Shown: positions 2,704 to 61,688 of the stretch, piece by piece
Numbering within the stretch: position 1 is the stretch's first letter
Layout: the number at the start of each line of letters is the position of its first letter
Assembly (NCBI GenBank): GCA_041664625.1
Contig: JBAYKK010000002.1
Span: 7,755-71,754 of the forward strand
Reading direction: 5' to 3'
DNA: 64,000 nucleotides
From: Minisyncoccota bacterium
GTDB lineage: Bacteria; Patescibacteriota; Minisyncoccia; Phycocordibacterales; WO2-35-19
Notes under the pieces: generated by a model
What the model was told of the DNA's origin: nothing
Databases searched by the model: none
The model's input: the letters and a program-made list of their open reading frames with translations, nothing else
Position numbers and translations under genes: made by a program

Positions 2704-2745
2704 TCGCGTGCACAAAAAACACCAGCAAAGCTGGGTTTTATTTTG

Positions 2746-7135: not shown

Positions 7136-7201
7136 CCCAGTAGTGAATTTTGGCATTAGTTTCACTATGCACTTTGTGCCATGCCAAAATCTACTACTGG
7201 G
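7136..7201. repeat. MITE-like palindromic element, copy G (arms CCAGTAGTGAATTTTGGCAT / ATGCCAAAATCTACTACTGG)
   Basis: Shares conserved terminal inverted repeats with 6 other copies; flanked by TTGAC on both sides. Confidence 0.7.
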
Positions 7202-16119: not shown

Positions 16120-16174
16120 CCTCACCCCGTTTTCCTTACGGAAAACTGCCCCTCTCCTAGACGCAGGGGAGGGG
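16118..16174 (+). repeat. R-family hairpin repeat copy R2 (double-hairpin variant)
   Basis: aacctcacccc + gttttccttacggaaaac + cccctctc-ctagacgcag-gggagggg. Confidence 0.7.
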
Positions 16175-16194
16175 AAAAATAAAAAATAAAACAG

Positions 16195-16242
16195 AAAAAC
16201 CCGCCGAGAGGGCAGAGATTTCTGCCGCCGTAGGCGGGTTCT
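16195..16242. terminator. bidirectional terminator between convergent genes (aacccgcc...ggcgggtt)
   Basis: Long GC stem flanked by A-run on plus and T-run on minus reading. Confidence 0.55.
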
Positions 16243-18517: not shown

Positions 18518-18574
18518 AACCTCACCCCACTTTCCTTCGGAAAGTTGCCCCTCTCTTATATTAAGAGAGGGGAG
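18518..18574 (+). repeat. R-family hairpin repeat copy R3 (double-hairpin variant)
   Basis: aacctcacccc + actttccttcggaaagt + cccctctc-ttatattaa-gagagggg. Confidence 0.7.
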
Positions 18575-20255: not shown

Positions 20256-20320
20256 CCCGTAGTAGATTTTGGCTATGTTATCACGATTCCGTAGGAATTA
20301 TAGCCAAAATTCACTACGGG
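20256..20320. repeat. MITE-like palindromic element, copy A, abutting tig start codon
   Basis: cccgtagtagattttggc...gccaaaattcactacggg. Confidence 0.7.
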
Positions 20321-22647: not shown

Positions 22648-22685
22648 TAACTCACCCCCAACCCCTCTCTTACATTAAGAGAGGG
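22648..22685 (+). repeat. R-family hairpin repeat copy R4
   Basis: aactcacccccaacccctctc-ttacattaa-gagagggg. Confidence 0.7.
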
Positions 22686-22783
22686 GAAAACGAATAAATA
22701 AGAAAGAAAAAATCCGCGGGTAATGCGGAGTGACAATCTTTCAGTATTAAAACCATTATATACCCAAGAGGGTAAACAGTCAA

Positions 22784-22852
22784 CCCCGTAGTAGATTTTG
22801 GCATTGTGGCAAAGCCACCGCACGAAGTGCAATGCCAAAATTCACTACGGGG
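22784..22852. repeat. MITE-like palindromic element, copy B (flanked by GTCAA direct repeat)
   Basis: ccccgtagtagattttggcattg...caatgccaaaattcactacgggg. Confidence 0.7.
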
Positions 22853-27088: not shown

Positions 27089-28291
27089 ATGGCAGAAGCT
27101 TTTGATCGTTCTAAACCTCACGTAAACGTCGGTACCATTGGTCACGTCGACCATGGTAAGACTACTTTGACCGCATCAATTTTGAGAATCCTCGATATGA
27201 AAAAAGGCGAGGGTTATGGTGCTCGCGTTGAAGCCGTCGATAACATTGACAACGCTCCTGAAGAAAAGGCCCGAGGGATTACCATCGCCTTGCACCACAG
27301 TGAATATTGGACTCCTACTAGACATTACGCTCACATCGACGCTCCAGGTCACGCCGACTACATTAAAAACATGATTACTGGTGCTGCTCAGATGGATGGT
27401 GCCGTGCTCGTCGTTGCCGCTACTGATGGTGTGATGCCTCAAACTCGTGAACACATCCTTTTGGCTCACCAAGTGGGTGTGCCTAAGATTATCGTTTTCT
27501 TGAACAAATGCGATATGGTACCCGAACAAGATCTTATTGATTTGGTGGAAGAAGAAATTCGTGAACTTTTGACCAAAAACCATTATGACGGTGCTGCCAC
27601 TCCTATCATCCGTGGTTCAGGTCTCAAAGCTTTGGAAGCTAAAGATTTGGAAGACCCTTACGCTAAAGCGGTAGTAGAATTGGTCAACGCTCTCGATACT
27701 TACATCCCAATGCCAGATCGTGAACTTGATAAACCTTTCCTTATGCCAATTGAAGACATCTTCTCCATTGAAGGTAGAGGAACTGTGGTTACTGGTAAAA
27801 TCGAAAGGGGTGTCGTAAAAGTCGGTGAAGACGTAGACGTCATCGGTTTGCATGATGCTCAAAAAACTACTGTTACCGGTATTGAAATGTTCAATAAACA
27901 ACTTGAAAGAGGAGAAGCGGGGGATAACGCCGGCATCTTGCTCCGAGGTTTGAAAAAAGACGACGTGCATCGTGGTCAGGTTATTGCTAAACCAGGAAGC
28001 GTCACCCCTCATACAGACTTTGAATCAGAAGTTTACATTTTGAAGAAAGAAGAAGGTGGTAGACACACTCCATTTTTCACTGGTTACAAACCTCAGTTCT
28101 ACATCAGAACTACTGACGTGACTGGTGAAGTGACTTTGAAAGAAGGAGTAGAAATGGTTATGCCTGGAGACACCGCAACCTTCAAAGTCAAATTGGTAGC
28201 CCCAGTGGCCCTTGAAGAAAAACAAAAGTTTGCTATCCGCGAAGGAGGCAAGACTGTGGGAGCGGGTTTCGTAACCAAAATAGTTGCATAA
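27089..28291 (+). CDS. tuf: elongation factor Tu
   Basis: [25 protein letters not shown] motifs; 400 aa. Confidence 0.97.
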
Positions 28292-28293
28292 AA

Positions 28294-28361
28294 ACACCTC
28301 ACCCCTAGCCCCTCTTCATCGTCTGTTCGATTCTGCTGAATCGCCTAGATTAGGAGAGGGG
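28294..28361 (+). repeat. R-family hairpin repeat copy R5 (expanded, extra inner hairpin)
   Basis: acacctcacccctagcccctcttc...cgattctgctgaatcg...ggagagggg directly after tuf stop. Confidence 0.65.
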
Positions 28362-28385
28362 AAAAGGAAAGGAACAAAAGATAAT

Positions 28386-28757
28386 ATGACAGAGAGTACA
28401 TTAAAAAAAGAAAAGAAAACAACAAAGGCTAAGGTCAAAAAAGAAGACCCTATCTCTAAGTTGCGCATCAGAGTCATGGCCTATGAATATAAAGTGCTTG
28501 ATATTTCGGTCAAGCAAATCATAGACACGGCTATGCGTTATGATGCCAAGATCGTCGGCCCGATACCTTTGCCAACTGAAATCAAAAAATGGACAGTCAA
28601 CCGTTCACCTTTCGTTTACAAAAATGCTCGTGAGCAGTTTGAAATGAGAGTCCATCGCCGAGTGATTGATATAGTGAACCCAAGCCCAAAAATAATGGAT
28701 TCACTGACCAATCTTTCTCTACCAAGTGGTGTGAGTATCGACGTGAAAATCATCTAA
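28386..28757 (+). CDS. rpsJ: 30S ribosomal protein S10 with N-terminal K/E-rich extension
   Basis: Core IRIRVMAYEYKVLDISVKQIIDTAMRYDAKIVGPIPLPT; start moved to ATG 28386 (RBS GGAAAGGAA) because track ORF start runs through repeat R5. Confidence 0.85.
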   Translation: MTESTLKKEKKTTKAKVKKEDPISKLRIRVMAYEYKVLDISVKQIIDTAMRYDAKIVGPIPLPTEIKKWTVNRSPFVYKNAREQFEMRVHRRVIDIVNPSPKIMDSLTNLSLPSGVSIDVKII

Positions 28758-28984: not shown

Positions 28985-29051
28985 CCCGGTAGTAGATTTT
29001 GATATCGCACTTAAAGTGCCGGCAAGGCCAATATCAAAATTCACTACTGGG
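28985..29051. repeat. MITE-like palindromic element, copy C (flanked by TTGAC direct repeats)
   Basis: cccggtagtagattttgatatc...gatatcaaaattcactactggg. Confidence 0.7.
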
Positions 29052-35948: not shown

Positions 35949-37631
35949 ATGAAAATTCAAGAAAAAATTAAAAAATGGATAAAAGAAACTTTGGAGATAG
36001 AAGGGGATTTTGTGTTGGCTCATCCCAAAGATTTGAAAAATGGTGATTATTCTTTCTTTGCTACGTCGAAGCTTTCAGCGAAAGCGAGTACTCCAGAAGA
36101 AGCGGTAAATATTTTAAATGAAAATAAAATTCCAGAAATAGAAAAAATAGAAGTAGTGGGCAAGTTTATAAATTTTTATTTATCCAAAGGTTTTTTTGTC
36201 GATTCGGTTAAAGAAATTTTAGATAAAAAAGAAAATTATGGCAAAAATAATTTGCTTGAGGGTCAAAAAATCTTGATTGAGCATACTCAACCCAATCCGT
36301 TCAAAGAATTTCATATTGGGCATTTGATGAACAATGCAGTAGGAGAATCAGTTTTTAGAATTTTGGATGCAAACGGAGCAGAGATTACGGCCGTTGGTTA
36401 TCATGGGGATGTGGGGCTTCACGTAGCCAAAACTATTTGGGGCAAAATGCAAAAACCGGAACTCTCTTGGGGAGAGGCTTATGCCTATGGTTCTCAAAAT
36501 TTTGACGATCATAAAATAGAGATAACCGAAATAAACAAAAAAGTTTACGAAAAATCAGATCAGGAAATAAATAAATTATATGAAAATGGTAAAAAAGATT
36601 GTTTAGATTATTTTGAATCGCTTTATAAAAGATTAGACAGTCATTTTGATTTTCATTTTTTTGAAAGTGAAACTGGGGAAGTAGGGCAGGCTTTGGTAAT
36701 GCAAAATGTGGGTAAAGTTTTTGAAAATGGTGAGGGCGGGGCGGTGATTTTCAAAGGTGAAAATTTTCAGCCCCAGACTCATACTCGAGTCTTCATAAAT
36801 TCAGAAGGTATTCCCACTTATGAAGCCAAAGAAGTAGGTTTGGCTAAAATTAAAAAGGAAAAATATGATTATGATAAATCCATTACTGTCACCGCTAACG
36901 AACAGGATGCATTTTTTGATGTGACTGAGGTGGCGATCGGTGAAGTGAGGCCAGAACTCAAAGGCAAACTCAAACATCTTTCACATGGTATGTTGCGATT
37001 ACCGAGTGGTAAAATGTCTAGTCGCACTGGAGAGGTGATTACTGCGGAAAATTTGATTGAGCAGGTGAAAGAAAAAGTTTTTGAAAAAATAAAAGATCGG
37101 GAATTTGATGAGAATGAAAAACAAGAGATTGCGGAGATAGTGGCGGTCGGTGCCATTAAGTATTCCGTCTTAAGGCAAGCTATCGGGGGAGACATTATTT
37201 TTGATTTTGATAAATCAATTTCATTCGAAGGGGATTCGGGCCCTTATCTGCAGTATGCTTGTGTGCGCGCTAATTCGGTTTTGGAAAAAGCTAAAGCAGC
37301 CAAAATGATTTCTTCTGTCGGCTTCGCTGATTTTCCTTCGGAAAATACGACTCTAGAAATCATTTTGGCTGCTTCCGCGACTGAATTAGAAAAAATATTG
37401 TATCGATTTGAAGAAGTAGTAGAGCGAGCAGGGCAGGAGTATGCTCCACATCATATCGTGACTTACTTGACCGAGCTCGCCAGTGTTTTCAATAGTTTTT
37501 ATGCTAATAATAAAATTATAGACGGGAGTGACACGACTTCACCTTATAAAATTGCTCTGACTACCGCAGTAGCTCATACTCTCAGATCCGGTCTCCATAT
37601 TTTGGGTATCAAAGTGCCGGAGAAAATGTGA
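35949..37631 (+). CDS. argS: arginine--tRNA ligase
   Basis: Class I HIGH (FHIGHLMN), C-terminal DALR anticodon-binding region ending ...VPEKM. Confidence 0.9.
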   Translation: MKIQEKIKKWIKETLEIEGDFVLAHPKDLKNGDYSFFATSKLSAKASTPEEAVNILNENKIPEIEKIEVVGKFINFYLSKGFFVDSVKEILDKKENYGKNNLLEGQKILIEHTQPNPFKEFHIGHLMNNAVGESVFRILDANGAEITAVGYHGDVGLHVAKTIWGKMQKPELSWGEAYAYGSQNFDDHKIEITEINKKVYEKSDQEINKLYENGKKDCLDYFESLYKRLDSHFDFHFFESETGEVGQALVMQNVGKVFENGEGGAVIFKGENFQPQTHTRVFINSEGIPTYEAKEVGLAKIKKEKYDYDKSITVTANEQDAFFDVTEVAIGEVRPELKGKLKHLSHGMLRLPSGKMSSRTGEVITAENLIEQVKEKVFEKIKDREFDENEKQEIAEIVAVGAIKYSVLRQAIGGDIIFDFDKSISFEGDSGPYLQYACVRANSVLEKAKAAKMISSVGFADFPSENTTLEIILAASATELEKILYRFEEVVERAGQEYAPHHIVTYLTELASVFNSFYANNKIIDGSDTTSPYKIALTTAVAHTLRSGLHILGIKVPEKM

Positions 37632-37780
37632 TTTTGCCACCAGCAAAATCATCCTGAGCTAAACAAATAATTTTGATTATTTTTTAGCGAAGGGTAAATT
37701 TTGCCACCAGCAAAATCATCCTGAGCTAAACAAATAATTTTGATTATTTTTTAGCGAAGGGTAAATTTTGCCACCAGCAA
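37631..37780 (+). repeat. perfect tandem direct repeat, 67-bp unit x2.2 (attttgccaccagcaaaatcatcctgagctaaacaaataattttgattattttttagcgaagggtaa)
   Basis: Units 37631-37697, 37698-37764 identical; partial third 37765-37780; between argS stop and next ATG. Confidence 0.9.
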
Positions 37781-38065: not shown

Positions 38066-38132
38066 CCAGTAGTAGATTTTGACATTACACTTCATGCTGT
38101 GGCTTTGCCACGATGTCAAAATTCACTACTGG
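38066..38132. repeat. MITE-like palindromic element, copy D (TTGAT / TTGAC flanks)
   Basis: ccagtagtagattttgacat...atgtcaaaattcactactgg. Confidence 0.7.
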
Positions 38133-38200: not shown

Positions 38201-38545
38201 ATGTCACGATCACTCAAAAAAGGCCCTTACGTTGACCCAAGGGTTATCAAAAAAATAGAAGGCAAAAAGCCTCAGGATACTGGGGTTATTAAGACTTGGT
38301 CTAGAGCTTGTACTATTTCACCAGAGATGGTGGGTTTCACTTTTGGCGTGCACAATGGCCGAGATCATATCGAAGTTTTCGTCACTGAAGATTTGGTAGG
38401 TCACAAATTGGGTGAATTTTCTTTGACTCGCAAATTTATAAAACACGGAGGAAAGATGCAAAAAGATTTGGAGGCTAAGAAAAAAGACGATGAAATAAAC
38501 GCTGCTAAAGCTGCTAAAGCTTCGGTGGATGCCAAGAAAAAATAA
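38201..38545 (+). CDS. rpsS: 30S ribosomal protein S19 with K/A-rich C-terminal extension
   Basis: SLKKGPYVD...[23 protein letters not shown] core. Confidence 0.9.
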
Positions 38546-38560
38546 AATACTCAAAACAAA

Positions 38561-38929
38561 ATGAACGAAATAACCGCACAGCTAAATAGTTACAGACAAT
38601 CACCAAGAAAAGTGAGAGTAGTCGCAGATGCACTGAGGGGTAAGTCTATAAAAGAAGCCAAAAGTAGATTGGATTTTATAATCAAACGCGCTACTGGCCC
38701 ATTGCACAAACTGCTCAATTCAGCTGTCGCTAATGCCAAAAATTTGGGAGCCGATGTTGATAAACTTTTTGTTAAATCTATTTCAGTAGATGCCGGTAAA
38801 ATTTTATACAGAAGGATGCCAGTTTCTCATGGTTCAGCCCACACTATCCATAAACGCACTTCTCATATCAAAATAGTTTTGGCTGAGAAATTTAAAGCAG
38901 TAAAAAATAAAGATAATAAGAAAAAATAA
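38561..38929 (+). CDS. rplV: 50S ribosomal protein L22
   Basis: R.SPRKVR.V.D.IRGK pattern. Confidence 0.85.
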   Translation: MNEITAQLNSYRQSPRKVRVVADALRGKSIKEAKSRLDFIIKRATGPLHKLLNSAVANAKNLGADVDKLFVKSISVDAGKILYRRMPVSHGSAHTIHKRTSHIKIVLAEKFKAVKNKDNKKK

Positions 38930-38933
38930 TTTT

Positions 38934-39608
38934 ATGACACACACAGTACATCCATATGCTCATAGATTAGGTATCATTCGTGACTGGAAGTCACGTTGGT
39001 TTAGTGTCAAAGACAAATACCGAGAAAATTTGAAAAGTGATGTTTTGGTTTTTGAATATTTAAAAAAGAGATTAAAAAATTGTTTTGTTAATACTACTGA
39101 AATAGAAAGAAGCGCCAAAGTTTTTAGAATCATCATCGAAACTTCTCGTCCTGGTTTTATAATCGGCCGAAGCGGTGAGGGGATGGTGAAGCTCAGAGAA
39201 GATATCATCCGTTTTATGAAAAGACGCAAGTTGAATTTGGCCGAAGAGCTCAAAATAGACGTCAAAGAAGTTAAATCTCCAGAATCCAGCTCTATGATCG
39301 CGGCTCAGATGGTGGCCGAAGGATTGGAAAAAAGATTGCCTTTCCGCCGAGTCATCAAGACTATGATCGAAAAAGCTTATGCTAACCGTGATGTCAAAGG
39401 AGTGAAGATTACTCTTTCCGGTATTATGGGCGGTTCGGCTATGGCGAGGATAGAGACCAAAAAGGTAGGGCGTATCCCTTTGCAGACTTTGCGTGCTGAT
39501 ATTGACTATGCACTTTATGAAGCTCATCTACCGCTTGGTAAAATTGGTATAAAAGTTTGGATTTATAAAGGCGATATTTTCGAAAAAGATAAAAGTGTAA
39601 AATCATAA
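38934..39608 (+). CDS. rpsC: 30S ribosomal protein S3
   Basis: HPYAHRLGI..DW.SRWF, KH domain, C-terminal domain. Confidence 0.9.
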   Translation: MTHTVHPYAHRLGIIRDWKSRWFSVKDKYRENLKSDVLVFEYLKKRLKNCFVNTTEIERSAKVFRIIIETSRPGFIIGRSGEGMVKLREDIIRFMKRRKLNLAEELKIDVKEVKSPESSSMIAAQMVAEGLEKRLPFRRVIKTMIEKAYANRDVKGVKITLSGIMGGSAMARIETKKVGRIPLQTLRADIDYALYEAHLPLGKIGIKVWIYKGDIFEKDKSVKS

Positions 39609-39617
39609 TTTAATATC

Positions 39618-40037
39618 ATGTTATTCCCAAAAAAAGTTAAATACAGAAAATGGCATACCATGCGCGAAAATCCTGACAAAGTGAGTCCGGCTACTCGTGG
39701 TATCAAAGTGTCTTTTGGTTCTCATGGCCTCAAAGCCATGGTACCCGGCAGGATCACTTCCAAACAAATCGAAGCGGCTAGAAAAGCCATCACTCACAAT
39801 TTGGGTAAAACTGGTAGAGTTTGGATACGTATTTTCCCAGATATGCCTTTCACCAAAAAGCCAGCCGAAGTGAAAATGGGTAAAGGTAAAGGTGATATAG
39901 AAGGTTACTTGGTCAGAGTTTTGGCTGGGCAAGTGATGTTTGAAGTAGATGGAGCAGTTGATGCTGTGGCCGTAGAATCATTGCGCAAAGGCGGTACCAA
40001 GATGCCAGTGAAGACTAAGATTGTGGCTAGAATATAA
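39618..40037 (+). CDS. rplP: 50S ribosomal protein L16
   Basis: [13 protein letters not shown]... Confidence 0.9.
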
Positions 40038-40075
40038 CACCCCCCAACCCCCCTCTTACATTAAGAGGGGGAGAG
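40037..40075 (+). repeat. R-family hairpin repeat copy R6 (between rplP and rpmC)
   Basis: acaccccccaacccccctct-tacattaa-gagggggagag. Confidence 0.7.
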
Positions 40076-40098
40076 AAAAGAAAAAACAAAACAAAAAA

Positions 40099-40281
40099 AT
40101 GAAAAAAGAATTAGCAAAAAAGAATAAAGCAGATTTGCAAAAAGAACTTGACGAAAAGCGAGTAGCAGTTCATAGTATACGCTTTAACATGGCTGGTAGT
40201 AAAAGTAAAAATGTTAAGGAACAAAAGAACATCAAAAAAGATATAGCCAGAATCAAGACTGAATTAAGAATTATGAATTAA
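40099..40281 (+). CDS. rpmC: 50S ribosomal protein L29
   Basis: MKKELAKKNKADLQKELDEKRVAVHSIRF; internal in-frame ATG used because track ORF start lies in repeat R6. Confidence 0.8.
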   Translation: MKKELAKKNKADLQKELDEKRVAVHSIRFNMAGSKSKNVKEQKNIKKDIARIKTELRIMN

Positions 40282-40286
40282 GAATT

Positions 40287-40562
40287 ATGGATAAAAAGAA
40301 AGAAAAAAAGAATACAGAAGCAACAGAGACTATTTCCAGAGCCAAGACTTTGACTGGGGTAGTGGTATCAGACAAGATGAAAGACACTTGCGTGGTTTCT
40401 ATCACTCGATTTGTTAAACACACCAAATACAAAAAATATTATAAAGTTAGCAAGAAATACAAAGTGCATGATGTTGGCAATATCAAAAAGATTGGCGATA
40501 AAGTAGAAATAATTTCTTGCCGACCGATTTCCAAAGATAAGCATTTCATAATTGTAAGTTAA
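40287..40562 (+). CDS. rpsQ: 30S ribosomal protein S17
   Basis: LTGVVVSDKMKDTCVV core. Confidence 0.9.
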   Translation: MDKKKEKKNTEATETISRAKTLTGVVVSDKMKDTCVVSITRFVKHTKYKKYYKVSKKYKVHDVGNIKKIGDKVEIISCRPISKDKHFIIVS

Positions 40563-40566
40563 AAAC

Positions 40567-40944
40567 ATGATTCAACCACAAACAATAGTTAAAGTAGCCG
40601 ATAACTCAGGAGCCAAGATAGGTCGCGTTTTCAAGATACTCGGCAGTTCCAAAAAAAGATACGCTGGCATAGGCGAGTTGGTTATTTTTTCTGTTCAAAA
40701 AGCTGAACCCCGAAAAGAAATAAAAAAGAAAGCCGTTCTTTTGGGATTGGTGGTTCGTCAAAAAGCGCCATTACGACGCAAAGACGGTTCTTATATCCGT
40801 TTCGATGAAAACGCAGTGATCGTAGTAGATCAAAAAAAGGGTGAGATCGTACCAAAAGCCGGACGTATCTTTGGTCCAATACCTAGAGAAATTGCTGAGG
40901 CTGGTCACCAAGCTATAGTTTCGTTAGCCCCGGAAGTGATTTAA
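40567..40944 (+). CDS. rplN: 50S ribosomal protein L14
   Basis: MIQPQTIVKVADNSGAK. Confidence 0.9.
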   Translation: MIQPQTIVKVADNSGAKIGRVFKILGSSKKRYAGIGELVIFSVQKAEPRKEIKKKAVLLGLVVRQKAPLRRKDGSYIRFDENAVIVVDQKKGEIVPKAGRIFGPIPREIAEAGHQAIVSLAPEVI

Positions 40945-40948
40945 GATA

Positions 40949-40989
40949 ACACCCCCCAACCCCCCTCTTACATTAAGAGGGGGGAGGGA
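40949..40989 (+). repeat. R-family hairpin repeat copy R7 (between rplN and rplX)
   Basis: acaccccccaacccccctct-tacattaa-gaggggggaggg. Confidence 0.7.
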
Positions 40990-41016
40990 AAAGAAAAAAC
41001 AAATAAAAACAAAAAC

Positions 41017-41238
41017 ATGAAAATAAAAAAAGGAGACAAAGTAATGGTGATCACAGGTAAAGACAAAGGCAAATCAGGTCCTGTGGTTAAAGCTTTTCCT
41101 AAAAACGATATGGTTTTGGTAGAAGGAGTCAACAAACACAAATTACACAAAAGACCAAGGAAAAGTAATGAGAAAGGCAAGATTATAGAGCAGGCTACGC
41201 CGGTACATGTTTCCAATGTTAAGAAAGTAACCAAATAA
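41017..41238 (+). CDS. rplX: 50S ribosomal protein L24
   Basis: [23 protein letters not shown] motif. Confidence 0.9.
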
Positions 41239-41280
41239 AAACCTCACCCCCAGCCCCTCTCCTAGATGCAGGAGAGGGGA
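41239..41280 (+). repeat. R-family hairpin repeat copy R8 (between rplX and rplE)
   Basis: aacctcacccccagcccctctc-ctagatgcag-gagagggg. Confidence 0.7.
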
Positions 41281-41309
41281 GAAGGGAGAGAAAAAATAAC
41301 AAAAACAAT

Positions 41310-41858
41310 ATGAAATTAATGAAAGAAAAAACCAAAGACGCCTTCAAAGAACTCAAAGAAAAATTGGGTATGAAAAATGTCATGCAGTCTCCCAAGATTG
41401 TGAAAGTGGTAGTGAATTCCGGAGTTGGTTCTTTCAATGATAAAAAGAAAATTGATATCGTTATCGACCGATTGGCCAAAATCACTGGTCAAAAACCGAT
41501 CAAAAGGGGAGCCAAACAATCAGTCGCATCTTTCAAATCTAGACAAGGTGATATCGTAGGAGTGCAGATCACTTTGCGTGGCGAAAAAATGTGGAGTTTT
41601 TTGGATCGTCTTTTTCATATCGCGTTGCCTCGTACCAAAGACTTCAGAGGGATTTCAGAGACTGCCGTAGATGAAATGGGTAACTACACACTTTCCATCA
41701 AAGAGCATGTCGTGTTCCCAGAAACTGCTGATGAAGATTTGAAAGACGTTTTTGGTTTTTCAGCTACTTTGGTCACCAATCTCAAAAACTCAAAAGATGC
41801 ACTCGAATTTTTCAAAGCTCTAGATTTTCCTTTCAAAAAAACTTCTCTTAAGAAATAA
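41310..41858 (+). CDS. rplE: 50S ribosomal protein L5
   Basis: NVMQSPKIVKVVVN... L5 pattern, 182 aa. Confidence 0.9.
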   Translation: MKLMKEKTKDAFKELKEKLGMKNVMQSPKIVKVVVNSGVGSFNDKKKIDIVIDRLAKITGQKPIKRGAKQSVASFKSRQGDIVGVQITLRGEKMWSFLDRLFHIALPRTKDFRGISETAVDEMGNYTLSIKEHVVFPETADEDLKDVFGFSATLVTNLKNSKDALEFFKALDFPFKKTSLKK

Positions 41859-41921: not shown

Positions 41922-41954
41922 ACACACCCAACCCCCTCTTATTTTAAGAGGGGG
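41922..41954 (+). repeat. R-family hairpin repeat copy R9
   Basis: acacacccaaccccctct-tatttta-agaggggg. Confidence 0.65.
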
Positions 41955-41967
41955 CACTGGAACACAA

Positions 41968-42000
41968 AAAGCTCAACGACTCTCTCGTTGAGCTTTTTCG
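41968..42000 (+). terminator. rho-independent terminator agctcaacg-actctct-cgttgagct + TTTTT
   Basis: Read directly; ends r-protein transcription unit. Confidence 0.65.
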
Positions 42001-45275: not shown

Positions 45276-46856
45276 TTACTCCATCGCTTTCATCATTTGC
45301 TTTGCTACAGCCTCAACAACAGGGACACTTACAGAATTTCCTGCTTGTTTGTATAATGATGAATCCGAAATTTTAGGTAAAATATATCCCTTAGGGAAAC
45401 CTTGTATTCTAAAACATTCTAGTGGTGTGAGTTTTCTTATACCTTTTTTGTCTTTAATAATTGGCACATTATGTCCGCCAGTACCCATGTTTGCGGTTAA
45501 AGTAGGGCATACACCGCTTTTATTTTCTCTCACATACTGTCTACGCCACTGGTATACTTTACCTTCTTCTCTAACAAAATTTTTTAGTCTGTCAAAAAGT
45601 GGTTTGCCGTTATAGTAGTATTTTTCCGGAACATTTTTTTCTAGTAAATTAGTGATTTTTTTGGTTAATTCAACCGACTCTGGGAATGAAAAATTGTCCG
45701 AATGCTCCTTATTTTTAAAACCAACGATATACACACGCTCCCTGTTTTGAGGAACATTCCCATATTCCATTGTGTTTAAAACTTTATATTTAATATGATA
45801 ACCAAAACCTTCCAGTGTTTCTCTGATTACTCGGAAAGTTTTCCCTTCATCATGGCTTGCTAAATTTTTTACATTTTCCAACAAAAATCCTTGTGGTTTT
45901 CTTGCCTCAATTATCCTCGCTATATCAAAAAATAAATTTCCTCTACCTTTTTCATCCTTAAAACCTTGCCTGTATCCTGCAATTGAAAATGCCTGACATG
46001 GAAATCCACCCAAAAGGAAATCAAATTCCGGTAAATCATCTATTCCTATTTTTCGTATATCCTCCACCACAAGTTTGGATGTTGGAAAATTCAAATCATA
46101 TGTCTTTTTACAATTTGGCTCAAAATCATTTGAAAAAACAGTTTCAAAACCAGCTTGCTCAAATCCAAGTCTTATTCCACCAACACCAGCAAAAAGATCT
46201 ATCGTTCCAAAGTTACTTTTAGATTTTGTTTTTGTTGGAGCAATTTTTAAATTATTAATATTGCGGATTACTTGAGCGACAACTCCTCGCACCTCCACCT
46301 CTTTTCTATAAATAGGGAAGAGAGTAGGGTTTGCGGGCTGGAGCCTAAATCTGCCATCTTCGCGGTACAACTTTTTTAAAGTAGTTTGATCTTCGTCAAT
46401 AATAGCGACTACAGTTTGACCATTTTCGGCAACTGATTGTTTTTTAATAACGACAACATCACCATCAAAAATTCCTTCATCTATCATGCTGTCGCCTGCC
46501 ACTCTCAAAGCGTAATAGCCATTCGAATTTCGAATGCTAGGATTCACAATTGAGATAGTTTCCTGATGATCCTCTATCACTTCAATTGGTTGCCCAGCAG
46601 CTATTGTCCCAATGATTGGGATTTTTACAAGTAAGTCGGTGTATTTAACATCAATTGAACGCTTCTGATTTTTTTTGTTTTTTTCTAAATGGCCAGCTTT
46701 TCTCATTTCCTCAACATGCTGGTGGATTGTAGATACAGACCGCAGTTTTAGTTTTTTCTTTATTTCTTCTAGAGAAGGGGAATAACCTTTGTTTTCAGAG
46801 TAAAGGTTTATAAAGTCCAGTATTTTCTTTTTTTGTGGAGTTAAACTTTTTTGCAT
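45276..46856 (-). CDS. LexA repressor (wHTH + S24 self-cleaving peptidase) fused to C-terminal DNA (cytosine-5)-methyltransferase
   Basis: N-term: IPIIGTIAAGQP (Ala-Gly cleavage site), RVAGDSMIDEGIFDGD (Ser), NGQTVVAIIDEDQTTLKKL (Lys), VIRNI; C-term: motif I DLFAGVGG, IV GFPCQAFS, VI ENV, VIII QNRERV, X GNSVSVPV; one continuous 526-aa ORF. Confidence 0.8.
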   Translation of the reverse strand: MQKSLTPQKKKILDFINLYSENKGYSPSLEEIKKKLKLRSVSTIHQHVEEMRKAGHLEKNKKNQKRSIDVKYTDLLVKIPIIGTIAAGQPIEVIEDHQETISIVNPSIRNSNGYYALRVAGDSMIDEGIFDGDVVVIKKQSVAENGQTVVAIIDEDQTTLKKLYREDGRFRLQPANPTLFPIYRKEVEVRGVVAQVIRNINNLKIAPTKTKSKSNFGTIDLFAGVGGIRLGFEQAGFETVFSNDFEPNCKKTYDLNFPTSKLVVEDIRKIGIDDLPEFDFLLGGFPCQAFSIAGYRQGFKDEKGRGNLFFDIARIIEARKPQGFLLENVKNLASHDEGKTFRVIRETLEGFGYHIKYKVLNTMEYGNVPQNRERVYIVGFKNKEHSDNFSFPESVELTKKITNLLEKNVPEKYYYNGKPLFDRLKNFVREEGKVYQWRRQYVRENKSGVCPTLTANMGTGGHNVPIIKDKKGIRKLTPLECFRIQGFPKGYILPKISDSSLYKQAGNSVSVPVVEAVAKQMMKAME

Positions 46857-52370: not shown

Positions 52371-52394
52371 TATGTTATAATAATACATCATGAG

Positions 52395-52528
52395 TCCCGT
52401 AGTAGAAAATGGCATGGGAAAGTTTTTATTGTTTAGATTAAGAATGTTATTATTAATGAATAGATTATTATGTGTTTTAACTATAAAAATGGCACTTTCC
52501 AAAAACAATGCCATTTTTCACTAACGGG
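52395..52528. repeat. MITE-like palindromic element, copy E (expanded ~134 bp; arms cccgtagtagaaaatggcat / atgccatttttcactaacggg), flanked by ATGAGT direct repeat
   Basis: Coordinates +/-1; right arm ends at pilM start codon. Confidence 0.65.
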
Positions 52529-53632
52529 ATGAGTTTCATTTCTGACATTTTTGAAAAGAAAAATACGAGCGCTATTGGTATCGATATTGGCTCTTCTTCT
52601 ATCAAAGTAGTTCAACTTCATAAAAAGGGTGATAAAGCTATACTTGACACTTACGGTGAGCTTTCTTTGGGTCCGTATGGGGGTGTTTCAATCGGCCAAT
52701 CTACCAATTTGCCCACCGAAAAAATAGTGCAAGCGGTCAGAGATCTCTTGGCCGAAAAAGAAGTTGCCATTACTACCAAAGTTTGTGGTTTGGCCATCCC
52801 TTTCAAAGCTTCTCTGCTCTCTATTATAGAAATGCCGGCCATAGGTATGAAAGAGCTCGGTATGATGATACCGATTGAAGCTCGTAAATATATACCGGTG
52901 CCGATATCAGACGTGACCATCGATTGGTCGGTAGTACCCAAATCCGAAGTTGAAGATATCCCTGTTATGAAGGGTGAAAATAAAGTCAAAACAGTCGATA
53001 TACTTTTGGTGGCTATCCATAATAATATTATCAATCAATATCGGGATGTTGTTTCCAAGGCTGGTTTAGAGGCCAAATTTTTTGAAATCGAAGTTTTCAG
53101 TTCTATGAGAGCTATTTTGGAAGGGGTGCAAGGGGCGGTCATGATTTTTGATATGGGGGCGTCAACTACCAAATTGTATATGATAGATAGAGGTTTGGTA
53201 CATCATTCTCACACTATAAATCGAGGCTCTCAAGACATAACCGCCAATATCGCGAGATCTCTCAATATTTCAACTGAAGAAGCTGAGGTAATAAAAAGAT
53301 CTGCTGGTTCCGGCAAAACATCAGAGGGCTTCGACCTTTCAGAATCGGTGGCCAATGTGGCAGACAGTATATTTTCTGAGGCCAATAGATTTTTGTTTGA
53401 ATTTCAGAAAAAAAGAAATCAAAATATCAAATCAGTATTTTTGACTGGCGGAGGTTCGGCTCTGCGGGGTTTCAGAGATTTGGCAGCAGCCAATTTCAAA
53501 GTTGAAGTGATATCCAGTAATCCATTTGAAAAAGTAGAAGTACCAGCATTTTTGGAAAATATCCTCAAAGAAACTGGCCCAGAATTCACCGTCGCAGTCG
53601 GCGCTGCTCTGCGTTGTCTCCAAGAATTATAA
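52529..53632 (+). CDS. pilM: type IV pilus assembly protein PilM
   Basis: Actin-like ATPase fold pattern IGIDIGSSSIKVV; start at ATG 52529 (MSFISDIF), in frame with the track ORF. Confidence 0.8.
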   Translation: MSFISDIFEKKNTSAIGIDIGSSSIKVVQLHKKGDKAILDTYGELSLGPYGGVSIGQSTNLPTEKIVQAVRDLLAEKEVAITTKVCGLAIPFKASLLSIIEMPAIGMKELGMMIPIEARKYIPVPISDVTIDWSVVPKSEVEDIPVMKGENKVKTVDILLVAIHNNIINQYRDVVSKAGLEAKFFEIEVFSSMRAILEGVQGAVMIFDMGASTTKLYMIDRGLVHHSHTINRGSQDITANIARSLNISTEEAEVIKRSAGSGKTSEGFDLSESVANVADSIFSEANRFLFEFQKKRNQNIKSVFLTGGGSALRGFRDLAAANFKVEVISSNPFEKVEVPAFLENILKETGPEFTVAVGAALRCLQEL

Positions 53633-60707: not shown

Positions 60708-60736
60708 CAAAACCCCGCTGTTGCGGGGTTTTGTGT
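60708..60736 (+). terminator. rho-independent terminator aaccccgc-tgtt-gcggggtt + TTTG
   Basis: Read directly. Confidence 0.7.
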
Positions 60737-60756
60737 TATTATTTAAATAATGCAAT

Positions 60757-60827
60757 CCCGTAGTGAATTTTGACTATAATTCCTGCGGAATCAGTTAAAA
60801 ATTAACATAGTCAAAATCTACTACGGG
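60757..60827. repeat. MITE-like palindromic element, copy F, flanked by 7-bp direct repeat ATGCAAT (second copy is the pilD start)
   Basis: cccgtagtgaattttgactat...atagtcaaaatctactacggg; TSD at 60750-60756 and 60828-60834. Confidence 0.75.
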
Positions 60828-61688
60828 ATGCAATATATTTTTGGGGTACTTATATTTTTTGTCGGTACTGCTTTGGGGAGTTTTATCGCCGTGATTGCCG
60901 ATCGCTACAACACAGGGCTACCCTGGACCAAAGGCCGGTCAATTTGTTTTTCTTGTGATACTGAACTTAAAAATAAAGATCTTTTCCCTTTGTTTTCTTT
61001 TTTGTGGCTCAAGGGCAAATGCCGATATTGCCAAAGCAAAATTCCTAGAGAGACTTTTTTTGTGGAAATTTTGATGGGCGCTCTCACAGTTTTAGCTGTT
61101 TTTAAATCTGGTTTTTTGGGTTTTGATTTTTCTTCCTTAATTCTTAATTCATACTTCATAATTCAATTTTTACTTTTAACTGCTATTTTTGGAAATATCC
61201 TTCTGATTTCTATTTATGATCTTAAGCATTTCATTATTCCCGACGTTTTTTTAATTTGTTTCTTTGTTTTTGCTTTTATTCTTAATTCCTACTTCATAAT
61301 TCATAATTCACTTTCTTATTTTTTCATAATTCAAAATCTGCTTTCTGGTCTTGTTTTAACTTTACCGTTTCTTCTAATATTTTTGATTTCACGAGGGGCT
61401 TGGTTTGGATTTGGGGACGTGAAGTATATTGCGGTTTTGGGGTTTTTCCTTGGTCTGGTGCAGGGTTTGTCAGCGGTAGTTTTGGCTTTTTGGATTGGAG
61501 CGGTTTTTGCTGTTTTGGCACTGGTTTTTAAAAAAATTACACCCTATATAAATTTGCCTCTGTTTAAAAATAATCTTACAATTAAGTCTGAAATACCATT
61601 TGGACCTTTCCTTTCTTTGGGGATAATAATAAGTTTTTATTTGAGTCTAGATTTATTTTACATAAATGAAATATTTAAATTTTTCTAA
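60828..61688 (+). CDS. pilD: prepilin peptidase PilD (A24 family)
   Basis: N-terminal CxxC...CxxC zinc motif, multiple TM, conserved GFGDVK Asp region. Confidence 0.85.
   Translation: MQYIFGVLIFFVGTALGSFIAVIADRYNTGLPWTKGRSICFSCDTELKNKDLFPLFSFLWLKGKCRYCQSKIPRETFFVEILMGALTVLAVFKSGFLGFDFSSLILNSYFIIQFLLLTAIFGNILLISIYDLKHFIIPDVFLICFFVFAFILNSYFIIHNSLSYFFIIQNLLSGLVLTLPFLLIFLISRGAWFGFGDVKYIAVLGFFLGLVQGLSAVVLAFWIGAVFAVLALVFKKITPYINLPLFKNNLTIKSEIPFGPFLSLGIIISFYLSLDLFYINEIFKFF

What the first reader, a model, noticed from the sequence alone, without database searches (positions are those of the whole stretch)
52389..52535. MITE-like copies inserted inside the first codons of pilM and pilD, with the start codon contained in the duplicated target
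At pilD the sequence reads taaataATGCAAT[element]ATGCAATatattt. At pilM it reads catcATGAGT[element]ATGAGTttcatt. In both cases the insertion landed 6-7 nt after the A of the ATG. The target duplication regenerated an intact ATG and reading frame on the 3' side. The 5' copy of the ATG now opens a 7-codon dead-end ORF (ATG CAA TCC CGT AGT GAA TTT TGA at pilD). A stable palindrome now sits immediately upstream of each functional start codon and replaces the native 5' UTR. A third copy abuts the tig ATG with no duplication. This points to a target preference for translation-initiation regions and a likely effect on pilus-gene expression.
Basis: partly seen in the sequence, partly recalled or inferred. 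Interest (0 to 1): 0.65.

Follow-up and report, generated by a model that had tools for sequence, protein, structure and literature searches.

The report
Hairpin mini-transposons landing on start codons
Two pilus genes of a tiny groundwater-type bacterium (Patescibacteria) each carry a small hairpin-forming mobile element inserted exactly at the start codon, and these are stripped-down copies of an apparently undescribed ~315-bp element that encodes only a small GIY-YIG nuclease and lands with unusual precision on start codons and promoter boxes.

Summary
A 133-bp element (52396-52528) and a 71-bp element (60757-60827) sit between perfect direct repeats, ATGAGT and ATGCAAT, which contain the pilM and pilD start codons. 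Close relatives have the uninterrupted sites with one copy of each repeat, so these are real insertions with target-site duplications. Both genes were leaderless (TGnTAnnAT box, 7-8 nt, ATG), so the element adds a 5' leader rather than replacing one.

The window holds 7 copies of this family. At least 114 genome loci across Patescibacteria carry it.

- About 74% of copies have flanking repeats of 4 nt or more, typically T(N2-3)A.
- Generic short copies abut the first base of -35 or TG-extended -10 boxes.
- Two subfamilies sit almost only on genuine start codons (32 of 35 long copies), in a fixed orientation (30 of 32).

Full-length relatives (~315 bp) have the same arms around an intact 88-92-aa SLX1/UPF0213-like GIY-YIG nuclease gene. 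One of them is also inserted at a start codon. The source genome very probably encodes such a nuclease.

Mobilisation by that nuclease, and any effect on pilus expression, are inferred and not shown. No matching description was found in Rfam or in the literature searched.

The parts
52373..52381 (+). Native TG-extended -10 box (TGTTATAAT) of leaderless pilM, 8 nt upstream of the distal ATG
   Evidence: Sequence. Conserved in the empty-site relatives L237, L236, L234 and L235, where it lies 8 nt before the single ATG.
52390..52395 (+). Distal copy of the target-site duplication ATGAGT (the original pilM start position). It now opens a 44-codon ORF, 52390-52524.
   Evidence: The site is single-copy in relatives.
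52396..52528 (+). Long-variant hairpin element, 133 nt. Arms are CCCGTAGTAGAAAATGGCAT and ATGCCATTTTTCACTAACGGG. The TAGA arm is distal and the TGAA arm is next to pilM.
   Evidence: 87% identical to L102 185-321. Predicted RNA fold -38.4 kcal/mol, z = -4.6. Absent from relatives.
52529..52534 (+). Proximal copy of the duplication. It holds the functional pilM start codon (pilM is 52529-53632, 367 aa).
   Evidence: Pfam PilM_2, 2e-38. An identical 367-aa protein was called in a public assembly, and 120 homologues are almost all 363-374 aa.
60734..60742 (+). Native TG-extended -10 box (TGTTATTAT) of leaderless pilD, 7 nt upstream of the distal ATG and just after the terminator hairpin of the preceding pilin gene (60708-60733)
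60750..60756 (+). Distal copy of the target-site duplication ATGCAAT. It opens a 7-codon dead-end ORF, 60750-60773.
   Evidence: L236 has the sequence once (ATGCAATATG).
60757..60827 (+). Short hairpin element, 71 nt, of the 'TATAATTCC' subfamily. It contains an inward-facing TATAAT at 60775-60780 that points towards pilD.
   Evidence: Predicted RNA fold -35.6 kcal/mol, z = -7.6.
60828..60834 (+). Proximal copy of the duplication. It holds the functional pilD start codon (pilD is 60828-61688, 286 aa).
   Evidence: Pfam A24_N_bact plus Peptidase_A24.
20256..20320 (-). Short element of the same 'TATAATTCC' subfamily, abutting the tig start codon (CAT at 20253-20255; tig is 19194-20255 on the minus strand). 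Only a 3-nt flanking repeat is present.
   Evidence: 93% identical to the copy at the pyrG start codon in L042.
7137..7200 (.). Generic short copy at the -35 box (TTGACT) of the rpsN/rpsH promoter. The flanking repeat is TTTGAC.
   Evidence: An orthologous copy is in L019. A copy in the opposite orientation occupies the same site in L054. A 92%-identical paralogue is in L243.
22785..22851 (.). Generic short copy at the -35 box of the leftward nusA promoter. The flanking repeat is GTCAA.
   Evidence: L002 has a copy at the same promoter.
28986..29050 (.). Generic short copy abutting TTGACT-16 nt-TATAAT, upstream of nusG. The flanking repeat is TTGAC.
38066..38132 (.). Generic short copy at the -35 box (TTGACA) of the rpsS promoter. 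The flanking repeat is TTGA.
   Evidence: The site is empty in L234, L235 and L236, which have a single TTTGACAAT.

Best explanation
The sequences in front of pilM and pilD are non-autonomous copies (MITEs) of a mobile-element family of Patescibacteria (class Paceibacteria) for which I found no prior description.

The full-length form is about 315 bp. It has a left arm (N-CCN-GTAGTAGAAT...), an 88-92-aa stand-alone GIY-YIG nuclease gene of the SLX1/UPF0213 type, and a right arm (...AAATTTCACTAC-NGG-N'). The two arms pair into a hairpin of about 21 bp that carries a conserved A.C/G.T mismatch.

The element inserts with a short staggered target duplication, mostly 4-5 bp of the form T(N2-3)A. 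Insertion points are very non-random:
- the first base of -35 or TG-extended -10 promoter boxes (generic short copies);
- the TGRA of start codons (two subfamilies and one full-length copy);
- occasionally stop codons and DnaA-box-like sites.

Because the duplication regenerates the interrupted motif next to the gene, pilM, pilD and tig keep an intact ATG and reading frame.

Inferred steps:
1. The small structure-specific-type nuclease, supplied in trans from the copy that very probably lies elsewhere on the source contig, recognises the arms as a hairpin or cruciform and makes the cuts. Host repair fills the gaps.
2. At start codons only one orientation persists. In that orientation the distal arm carries a -10-like box (TAGAAT, the nuclease gene's own promoter, or TATAAT in the short subfamily) that reads through the element into the gene. 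This would give a roughly 35-40-nt leader lacking the left arm.
3. Transcripts from the native leaderless promoter instead start at the distal ATG. They translate a dead-end peptide and bury the real AUG at the foot of a -35 to -38 kcal/mol hairpin, so pilus-gene expression is probably altered.
For: SHOWN

Insertion and duplication:
- The sequence shows the repeats.
- Empty sites exist in relatives for pilM, pilD and the rpsS promoter.

Family and flanking repeats:
- 7 copies in the window.
- At least 114 loci in Nomura-, Zambryski-, Wolfe-, Taylorbacteria and Paceibacterota genomes.
- Flanking-repeat enrichment is 74% against 8.5%.
- Under a symmetric end model the repeat lengths are 4 nt (52 copies), 5 nt (27) and 3 nt (17). 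T...A ends occur in 65 of 82.

Targeting:
- The -35 box starts exactly 4 nt after CTAC in 22 flanks, and no more than 2 at any offset beyond 6.
- TGnTAnnnT starts at the same offset in 17.
- 21 of 27 TTGA-flanked copies are promoter-like, against 15.6% of intergenic TTGA sites.
- 32 of 35 long copies have ATG-containing repeats at starts of real ORFs. All 10 tested are housekeeping genes whose Pfam match starts at residue 1-9 in eight and at the domain's usual later position in two.
- Only ATG-R-A is conserved in the target.
- In the same loci, ATGRA occurs 120 times at ORF starts and 177 times at non-start intergenic sites.
- Orientation is fixed in 30 of 32.

Hairpin:
- Stem positions 14-17 and the N of CCN covary, with 3-4 pair types at 93-97% Watson-Crick for positions 14-16, 89% at 17 and 65% plus 14% G.T at N.
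- The A.C/G.T mismatch is kept in 94% of copies.

Parent element:
- The arms directly flank intact GIY-YIG ORFs in two unrelated contexts. In L253-L262 the flanks are ATGGA, at a start codon. In L245-L252 the flanks are TAAG/TAAA, at the ruvX 3' end.
- The arms flank a decayed ORF in L087.
- Pfam GIY-YIG E-values are 1e-15 to 1e-18. The nearest solved structures are the UPF0213 proteins 1ZG2 and 1YWL and an SLX1 homologue.
- Nuclease genes lie within about 130 nt of copies in 5 of the 8 loci that have one.
- A 192,450-nt contig, the same length as the one carrying the window's Tig protein, encodes the nuclease next to a long copy at another start codon.
- Many nuclease homologues sit on contigs of 1-2 kb or less, as expected for repeats.

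No other enzyme or description:
- No transposase in the 41 window ORFs scanned.
- No Rfam family.
- Not found in the literature searched.
Against: - No experiment or co-occurrence census links the GIY-YIG nuclease to mobility. A lone 88-aa nuclease has no known strand-transfer activity. No described prokaryotic insertion-sequence family that I know of uses one (from my own knowledge).
- Full-length copies were seen in only three genomic contexts.
- Similarity between long copies and full-length elements is limited to about 15 nt at each end, plus weak 12-nt interior matches.
- Targeting cannot be fully separated from selective retention. All copies seen are survivors in very compact genomes.
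- The internal promoter is inferred only. The sigma-70 consensus scan found no full -35/-10 pair facing the genes inside the two elements.
- Only about half of the start-codon targets are clearly leaderless (15 of 32, against 33% of all ORF starts).
- That the nuclease contig and the window come from one genome rests on equal contig length and shared repeat families, not on overlapping sequence.
Confidence: 0.7

Rival explanations
1. The hairpin copies are ordinary MITEs moved by a conventional transposase (for example a DDE enzyme) encoded elsewhere and not yet identified. On this view the GIY-YIG gene between the arms is a passenger, a free-standing homing-endonuclease-like gene that invaded the loop of one copy and was then carried along.
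For: - Terminal inverted repeats plus 4-5-bp duplications with a symmetric T...A consensus are typical of DDE transposition.
- Most copies (all 7 in the window and about 35 long copies) have no nuclease gene nearby.
- From memory only: the IS1380 family has CC ends and 4-5-bp duplications.
Against: - No transposase was found in the 41 window ORFs scanned, and no arm pair 230-6000 bp apart enclosing a transposase-sized ORF was found in any of about 240 loci.
- The two arm tips covary, up to full swaps between CCC/GGG and GGG/CCC or AGG/CCT. This fits structure recognition better than sequence-specific end binding.
- The arm asymmetry (TAGAAT) is positioned as the nuclease gene's -10 box in all full-length copies. 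This argues that the gene is an original part of the element.
Confidence: 0.22
2. The palindromes are mainly host-selected regulatory hairpins, such as operator-like sites, insulators, or 5'/3' RNA stabilisers of housekeeping promoters. On this view their position at promoters and start codons reflects function and retention rather than insertion preference.
For: - Copies at the same promoters (rpsN/rpsH, rpsS, nusA) are kept across genera. Their arms are intact while loops and flanks have diverged.
- The stem covaries.
- Orientation is fixed at start codons.
Against: - Presence/absence polymorphism with clean duplications occurs among relatives at about 85% protein identity.
- Generic copies at -35 boxes show no orientation rule (tallied by eye from the table).
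- The same promoter site is occupied in opposite orientation with an unrelated loop in L054.
- Tandem arrays exist (L077, L125).
- A self-encoded nuclease gene points to selfish spread.

This reading does not exclude the main one; copies may have been co-opted.
Confidence: 0.15
3. They are REP/REPIN-type elements moved by a RAYT (a HUH/Y1 transposase), or IS200/IS605-type palindromic derivatives. The GTAG tag at the foot of the hairpin would suggest this.
For: - GTAG sits at the 5' foot of the hairpin on both strands.
- GTAG-tagged palindromes are a recognised REP superfamily (PMC3733652).
- A look-alike palindrome (GTAGTGGATTTTGCTA) occurs in a Pirellulaceae genome.
Against: - True target duplications that include site-specific bases (CAAT at pilD) are present and verified by empty sites. 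The REP survey I read (PMC3733652) reports none, and Y1 single-strand transposition leaves none (from my own knowledge).
- No Y1 transposase was found in the window.
- The ORF found between the arms is a GIY-YIG nuclease, not a RAYT.
Confidence: 0.03
4. The flanking repeats are coincidental, and the palindromes are native upstream structures of pilM and pilD.
For: None beyond the a-priori possibility.
Against: - Relatives have the uninterrupted site with one copy of the repeat.
- Family-wide repeat enrichment is 74% against 8.5%.
Confidence: 0.01

Closest known systems
Bacterial MITEs such as Correia elements (CREE/NEMIS) of Neisseria (PMC2649163, PMC10969869)
   Same: - Short, non-coding, hairpin-forming copies with inverted ends and target duplications.
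- Scattered near gene starts.
- Able to create promoters and long RNA hairpins that change expression of the adjacent gene.
- No transposase encoded in the copies.
   Different: - The sequence is unrelated and the host phylum is different.
- The duplication is T(N2-3)A of 4-5 bp, not TA.
- Insertion is phased to the first base of -35 or extended -10 boxes and to start codons.
- A candidate parent encodes a GIY-YIG nuclease.
- The 2024 review of prokaryotic MITEs has no occurrence of 'start codon', 'Patescibacteria', 'leaderless' or 'hybrid promoter'.
GTAG-tagged REP/REPIN elements with RAYT transposases (PMC3733652)
   Same: - A GTAG tetranucleotide at the foot of an imperfect palindrome.
- The hairpin shape matters.
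- Many copies between genes.
- Long-term persistence in a lineage.
   Different: - REPs are 20-40 bp and are not reported with target duplications in the survey read (PMC3733652).
- REPs are linked to a Y1 (HUH) enzyme.
- The elements here are 56-150 bp, have verified duplications, and are linked to a GIY-YIG nuclease.
Free-standing GIY-YIG homing endonuclease genes (phage T4 seg genes; the mobile GIY-YIG ORFs at the ends of fungal mitochondrial genes), cited from my own knowledge
   Same: - A selfish small gene with a GIY-YIG catalytic domain sits between, or at the very ends of, host genes.
- Insertion restores the interrupted gene end.
   Different: - Homing endonucleases copy themselves into one cognate allele by homologous repair.
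- They usually carry a DNA-binding domain.
- They have no inverted-repeat ends, no target duplication and no MITE offspring.
- Here the protein is a bare 88-92-aa catalytic domain, and many unrelated sites are hit.
SLX1 / UPF0213 (YhbQ, BH0048, EF2693) structure-specific GIY-YIG nucleases
   Same: These are the best solved-structure matches of the element-encoded protein. SLX1-type enzymes cut branched and hairpin DNA (from my own knowledge). That fits an element whose ends must pair.
   Different: Those proteins are chromosomal repair or unknown-function proteins. To my knowledge they are not known to be bracketed by inverted repeats or to be mobile.
Rickettsia palindromic elements (RPEs) (PMC10969869)
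   Same: Palindromic mobile copies in a reduced genome that are tolerated inside genes because the reading frame survives.
   Different: RPEs are translated in frame inside proteins. These elements sit before the regenerated start codon and are not part of the protein.

Membership tests
MITE (non-autonomous inverted-repeat transposable element) | Short (under about 500 bp), no coding capacity of its own | tested here: met
   Copies are 56-150 bp. The ORFs opened by the distal ATG vary in frame and length (7-44 codons).
MITE (non-autonomous inverted-repeat transposable element) | Terminal inverted repeats shared by many dispersed copies | tested here: met
   There are 7 copies in the window and at least 114 genome loci. 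The arm consensus is CCNGTAGT(AG/GA)ATTTTG.
MITE (non-autonomous inverted-repeat transposable element) | Target-site duplication, verified by empty sites | tested here: met
   Searches give the statistics. Searches show the empty sites for pilM, pilD and the rpsS promoter.
MITE (non-autonomous inverted-repeat transposable element) | A longer autonomous relative with the same ends that encodes the mobilising enzyme | tested here: inconclusive
   Elements of about 315 bp with the same arms enclose a GIY-YIG nuclease ORF. That this enzyme mobilises them is not shown.
Classical insertion sequence (DDE, DEDD, HUH, serine or tyrosine transposase) | Encodes a transposase of one of the known classes between its ends | tested here: not met
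   The only ORF between the arms is a GIY-YIG catalytic domain. No transposase domain was found in the 41 window ORFs scanned.
REP/REPIN-RAYT | GTAG- or CGTC-tagged palindrome | tested here: met
   GTAG/CTAC sits at the stem foot in all copies. The definition comes from PMC3733652.
REP/REPIN-RAYT | No target-site duplication; associated Y1 (RAYT) gene | tested here: not met
   Duplications are present. No Y1 transposase was found in the window. Content across the whole genome was not tested.
IS200/IS605-derived palindromic elements | Insertion 3' of a fixed tetra- or pentanucleotide, without duplication and without inverted ends | tested here: not met
   Both flanks match each other at each site but differ between sites, including bases beyond any core (ATGCAAT, ATGAAAT, GATGGAA).
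Integron attC site | R''/L''-L'/R' boxes (RYYYAAC...GTTRRRY) attached to a gene cassette next to intI | tested here: not met
   The arms lack these boxes. There are no cassette arrays and no integrase in the window. Only the architecture is similar: a hairpin with a conserved mismatch and a variable centre.
Correia element (Neisseria) | TA duplication and the specific 26-bp Correia inverted repeat | tested here: not met
   Duplications are T(N2-3)A of 4-5 bp. The arms have a different sequence.
Intrinsic terminator | GC-rich hairpin followed directly by a T run | tested here: not met
   The scanner calls no terminator at the two elements tested (pilM, pilD). The right ends of all seven copies are followed by ATG..., TTGAC... 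or other non-T-run sequence.
Any Rfam RNA family | Score at or above the family's gathering threshold | tested here: not met
   Only two tRNAs reach threshold in the window. At the elements there are only generic microRNA-hairpin noise hits far below threshold.
Free-standing GIY-YIG homing endonuclease | GIY-YIG catalytic domain | tested here: met
   PF01541, E = 6e-15 to 4e-18.
Free-standing GIY-YIG homing endonuclease | Homing into one cognate site; separate DNA-binding domain | tested here: not met
   Full-length copies sit at unrelated sites (a start codon, the ruvX 3' end) with short duplications. The protein is 88-92 aa, which is the catalytic domain only.

The most novel reading that the evidence does not exclude
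This would be a new class of prokaryotic transposable element. It would be the smallest autonomous unit so far (about 315 bp), and its only gene would be an SLX1-like GIY-YIG nuclease that recognises its own ends as a hairpin or cruciform. Integration would be directed to functional initiation landmarks rather than to a simple sequence: the upstream edge of -35 and extended -10 boxes, and start codons. The start-codon subfamilies would act as portable promoter/leader cassettes that rewire leaderless genes in streamlined Patescibacteria genomes.
Probability: 0.4. Interest if true: 0.9.

Novelty: new variant of a known kind. Interest (0 to 1): 0.78.

Why it matters
If this holds, it adds an enzyme class (a bare GIY-YIG nuclease) to the short list of proteins that move DNA in bacteria. 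It would also define an extremely small mobile unit.

The element's landing sites mark promoters, transcription starts and true start codons at single-base resolution in Patescibacteria. This is a huge uncultured group for which almost no promoter or start-site data exist. The copies could therefore serve as natural annotations of leaderless genes and -35/-10 boxes.

It raises a testable question: how can a DNA element find start codons and promoter edges? The candidates are true targeting and survival of only those insertions whose duplication repairs the motif.

For this genome specifically, the type IV pilus operon (pilM) and the prepilin peptidase gene (pilD) now carry strong hairpins at their 5' ends. 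Type IV pili are thought to serve host attachment and DNA uptake in these bacteria (from my own knowledge). Their expression may be altered.

Tried and rejected
- **Rfam.** Tested at curated thresholds on the whole window and at permissive thresholds on two elements. Only tRNAs and meaningless microRNA-hairpin hits appeared.
- **Longer elements by arm pairs.** I searched all loci for arm pairs 230-6000 bp apart. Only L087 (314 bp) was real, and it led to the nuclease. The other pairs were chance matches.
- **Viral contigs.** No copies of either variant.
- **Guide-type or core-homology insertion** (IS200/IS605, IS110 or integron-like). Considered because subfamilies have their own target classes and the hairpin carries a conserved mismatch. 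Rejected because the duplicated bases extend beyond any shared core and differ between sites, while the two flanks of each copy match.
- **Translational coupling through the upstream ORF.** The pilM upstream ORF ends 4 nt before the pilM ATG. This is not conserved: other copies stop after 15-26 codons, and pilD after 7.
- **A full sigma-70 promoter inside the elements facing the genes.** The scanner found none. Only -10-like boxes are present.
- **Strict link to leaderless genes.** Only 15 of 32 start-codon targets have a -10 box 5-9 nt upstream, against 33% of all ORF starts.
- **The pentamer alone as an explanation.** ATGRA is at least as common at non-start intergenic positions (177 against 120), and intergenic TTGA is promoter-like in only 15.6% of cases.
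- **IS1380-family parentage** (CC ends, 4-5-bp duplication). This is a recollection only, and no such transposase could be looked for with the scans left.
- **Literature.** Searches for the arm sequences and for MITE, GIY-YIG and Patescibacteria combinations found no description. The Halobacterium MITE paper was irrelevant.
Full report
**1. The observation**

At pilM, ATGAGT (52390-52395) is followed by a 133-nt palindromic element (52396-52528) and then ATGAGT again (52529-52534), continuing into the gene. At pilD, ATGCAAT (60750-60756) is followed by a 71-nt element (60757-60827) and then ATGCAAT (60828-60834).

Pfam confirms PilM (PF11104, 2e-38), the prepilin peptidase PilD (A24_N_bact plus Peptidase_A24) and trigger factor. 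The distal pilM ATG opens a 44-codon ORF that ends at 52524, 4 nt before the pilM ATG. A further in-frame ATG lies in the right arm at 52508.

A degenerate arm pattern matches 15 times in the window against 1.4 expected. This defines seven complete copies:
- 7137-7200
- 20256-20320
- 22785-22851
- 28986-29050
- 38066-38132
- 52396-52528
- 60757-60827

**2. The insertions are real**

PilM has many close homologues. I fetched the DNA around five of them.

- L237 (86% protein identity) has an upstream sequence identical to the window's (ttcattatgttataataatacatc), followed by a single ATGAGTTTT.
- L236, L234, L235 and L238 also have one ATGAG(T/C) and no element.
- For pilD, L236 reads ...gttattattaaataaATGCAATATG once. 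L235 and L234 also lack the element.
- The rpsS promoter copy (38066-38132) is absent from L234, L235 and L236, which have a single TTTGACAAT.

It supports true target-site duplication.

The same comparison shows that pilM and pilD are leaderless. A TG-extended -10 box (TGTTATAAT or TGTTATTAT) lies 8 or 7 nt before the ATG. The element therefore did not replace a 5' UTR; it created one. The native promoter now points at the distal ATG.

For tig, a relative's empty site reads TAAACT-gctttc-GTGTCATAC. The window reads TAGACT-agtgcg-GTGT-T[CCC...GGG]A-TGTCGTAC. So a 3-nt repeat is present. The A of the present tig ATG may come from the element's last base; this is inference from one relative.

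**3. The family**

These are almost all in Patescibacteria: Nomura-, Zambryski-, Wolfe- and Taylorbacteria, Paceibacterota, and bins labelled Saccharibacteria. The window's own proteins are closest to Zambryskibacteria. Its trigger factor is identical to one from an NCBI 'Candidatus Paceibacterota' genome.

Over 141 copies, flanking direct repeats of 4 nt or more occur in 74%, against 8.5% when left and right flanks are paired at random. I then defined the element symmetrically as N-CCN-GTAG...CTAC-NGG-N'. On that definition the repeat is 4 nt in 52 copies, 5 nt in 27 and 3 nt in 17. It begins with T and ends with A in 65 of 82.

The stem is maintained by compensatory changes. Positions 14-16 are 94-97% Watson-Crick, position 17 is 89%, and the N of CCN is 65% Watson-Crick plus 14% G.T, with three or four pair types at positions 14-16 and N. 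The outer triplet occurs as CCC/GGG, CCG/CGG, AGG/CCT and even GGG/CCC. An A.C plus G.T mismatch, which arises because one arm reads TAGA and the other TGAA, is kept in 94% of copies.

Predicted RNA hairpins are -35 to -40 kcal/mol, with z from -4.6 to -7.7. No Rfam family matches.

**4. Where the element lands**

*Generic short copies.* These abut promoter boxes with single-base phasing. A -35 hexamer with a -10 box at 16-18 nt (16-19) starts exactly 4 nt after CTAC in 22 flanks and 5 nt after it in 5. No offset beyond 6 has more than 2. TGnTAnnnT starts at the same offset in 17. By class, 25% of copies abut a full promoter and 15% an extended -10 box, against 2% and 1% of random positions.

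The tetranucleotide does not explain this. Only 15.6% of intergenic TTGA sites look like promoters, against 21 of 27 TTGA-flanked copies.

Four of the seven window copies are of this kind. They sit at the promoters of rpsN/rpsH, nusA, nusG and rpsS. Some of these promoter copies are shared with other genera, and in L054 the same site holds a copy in the opposite orientation with a different loop. Six other copies sit inside TGTGGATAA, a DnaA-box-like motif. One more, in a similar ATATCCACA motif, is in L243.

*The long variant (the pilM type).* A metagenome scan with its arm gave about 35 independent copies.

- 32 have ATG-containing repeats: ATGAA, ATGGA, ATGTA or ATGAG, sometimes extended by 1-2 nt.
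- 29 of the 32 lead directly into an ORF of 60 aa or more; the other three are the outer members of tandem pairs or an ORF cut off by the contig end.
- All ten tested are housekeeping genes: rnc, recR, greA, rpmE, hpf, pgk, fba, an M16 peptidase, an M50 peptidase and ftsW. In eight the Pfam match begins at residue 1-9; in two (rnc, M50 peptidase) it begins later, where that domain normally lies.
- In the target only ATG-R-A is conserved.
- In the same loci ATGRA occurs 120 times at ORF starts and 177 times at non-start intergenic positions. The exclusive association with real starts therefore goes beyond the pentamer.
- Orientation is fixed in 30 of 32: TAGA arm distal, TGAA arm next to the gene.
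- About half of the targets are clearly leaderless.

*A second start-codon subfamily.* This is short, with interior GGCTATAATTCCnnCGGAAT. It contains the pilD and tig copies, a copy at pyrG (L042) and one at a 121-aa ORF (L084). All four have the same orientation, with TATAAT facing the gene.

**5. The parent element**

A 314-bp unit in L087 has the family's arms around a decayed small GIY-YIG gene. Intact genes of 85-92 aa (PF01541, 6e-15 to 4e-18) then turned up next to copies in L003, L061, L071 and L073.

Fetching contigs for two homologues showed complete units:
- L253-L262: ATGGA|T-CCC-GTAGTAGAATTTCAGTTTGATT-ATG...(92 aa)...TGA-AATTTCACTAC-AGG|ATGGAC. This unit is inserted at the start codon of the next gene, in the same orientation as the long copies.
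- L245-L252...TAAG|T-CCG-GTAGTAGAATTTTGACTGAATT-ATG...(88 aa)...TAA-ACAAGTCAAAATTTCACTAC-GGG-A|TAAA. This unit is at the 3' end of ruvX.

In every full-length copy the TAGA arm precedes the ORF, and its TAGAAT (TAGATT in the decayed L087 copy) lies 11-12 nt before the nuclease ATG; in the arm remnants of L243 and L003 it lies 7 nt before. The conserved arm asymmetry is therefore most simply the gene's -10 box. This also explains why only one orientation is seen at start codons: the element's own promoter reads into the target gene. That last step is inference.

The protein's nearest solved relatives are UPF0213 proteins (1ZG2, 1YWL) and an SLX1 homologue. From general knowledge, that clade includes structure-specific nucleases that cut branched and hairpin DNA.

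A 192,450-nt contig, the same length as the contig carrying the window's trigger factor, encodes such a nuclease (P0246). It is followed 8 nt later by ATGGAT, a long copy, and the ATGGAA start of the next gene. That stretch also holds a 92%-identical paralogue of window copy 7137-7200 at the rplJ promoter.

No transposase domain was found in the 41 window ORFs scanned, and none lies between arm pairs 230-6000 bp apart in about 240 loci. Copies are absent from viral contigs.

**6. How it most likely works**

Shown:
- insertion with a short duplication;
- a hairpin under constraint;
- phased landing sites;
- a nuclease-encoding full-length form.

Inferred:
- The nuclease recognises the paired arms and makes the cuts, and host repair creates the duplication.
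- The duplication repairs the interrupted -35 box, extended -10 box or start codon, so the insertion is tolerated.
- Start-codon subfamilies survive only when their inward -10-like box faces the gene.

For pilM and pilD, two transcripts are then expected. One comes from the native leaderless promoter. It begins with the distal AUG and a dead-end peptide and folds into the full hairpin, with the true AUG at its foot. The other starts inside the element, lacks the left arm and has a leader of about 35-40 nt.

Whether the precise landing sites reflect targeting or survival cannot be settled from fixed copies.

**7. Comparison with known systems**

The copies meet the descriptive definition of MITEs. 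They resemble Correia elements in behaviour and REPs in having a GTAG-tagged palindrome. They fail the defining tests for REP/RAYT, IS200/IS605 derivatives, attC sites, Correia elements, intrinsic terminators and every Rfam family (see the membership table).

The candidate parent is unlike any insertion-sequence class I know, because its only gene is a bare GIY-YIG domain. It is also unlike homing endonuclease genes, because it has inverted ends, duplications, many unrelated sites and MITE offspring.

Searches of the literature library found no description of it. I searched for the arm sequences and for combinations of MITE, GIY-YIG, Patescibacteria and start codon. One paper notes only that GIY-YIG genes are among those exchanged by Patescibacteria.

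**8. Verdict**

The finding is real and is more interesting than first thought. I file it as a new variant of a known kind: a MITE family with exceptional target precision. I put the chance that it represents a new class of nuclease-driven transposon at about 0.4.

Noticed in passing
window 15940-16002, 16148-16199, 18548-18573, 22653-22711, 40039-40097, 40951-41009, 41247-41304, 41922-41970; also L240 and L242 upstream of tig, and L243 4216-4281: This is a second, unrelated repeat family. It consists of GC-rich nested palindromes (CCTCACCCC...CCCCTCTCYTTnnnnAAGRGAGGGG...) placed after genes like terminators. It is shared between genomes.
   Followed up: partly
window 37631-37764: There is a perfect 67-bp tandem duplication directly after the arginyl-tRNA synthetase gene (35949-37631).
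   Followed up: no
window 45276-46856 (minus strand): A 526-aa ORF fuses a LexA DNA-binding domain and an S24 peptidase to a C-5 cytosine DNA methyltransferase. It sits in a stretch (about 42-51 kb) that also holds an HTH/DUF4325 protein, a SocA/Panacea antitoxin-like protein and several ORFs without Pfam hits.
   Followed up: no
window 2745-2818 (minus strand): A tRNA-Ile with anticodon TAT is predicted. That is an uncommon way to read AUA without lysidine modification.
   Followed up: no
L059, L067, L076, L085, L105 (one Pirellulaceae genome): A look-alike perfect palindrome (GTAGTGGATTTTGCTA...TAGCAAAATCCACTAC) occurs at least five times in a planctomycete. It lacks the CCN/NGG ends and has no clear flanking repeats.
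   Followed up: no
L077 2211-2522; L125 2309-2539; L003 2876-3076: Tandem arrays of the element share one flanking repeat between neighbours. L077 has four identical 69-nt copies at 81-nt spacing. L125 has two long copies at one ATGAAT. L003 has a short plus a long copy at one ATGGAT.
   Followed up: partly
L006, L020, L070, L090, L098, L108, L112 and L243 6058-6117: Several copies are inserted inside TGTGGATAA/TTATCCACA-like (DnaA-box-like) sequences. Whether these lie at replication origins was not checked.
   Followed up: no
L061 1-110; L071 567-625; L073 2795-2863: A sub-group has AGG/CCT outer triplets and is flanked by GTCCA(C). In L061 that flank looks like the 3' end of a tRNA gene. 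Each of these copies lies directly upstream of an intact GIY-YIG gene.
   Followed up: partly
window and loci L234-L236 (ORF starts in general): About a third of ORF starts have a -10-like box 5-9 nt upstream, against 15% of random positions. Shine-Dalgarno-like sequences were not seen in the few upstream regions read by eye (rpsS, rpsN, pilM, pilD, tig). Leaderless expression therefore seems common in this lineage.
   Followed up: partly
window 22917-26669: A 1250-aa ORF divergent from nusA has no Pfam match at all.
   Followed up: no
window 7273-7460, 27089-28757, 38201-41858: The ribosomal-protein gene cluster is split into separate blocks (tuf-rpsJ, rpsS..., rpsN-rpsH...). Each of the two blocks examined (rpsS..., rpsN-rpsH...) has its own promoter, and each of those promoters carries a hairpin copy.
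   Followed up: no
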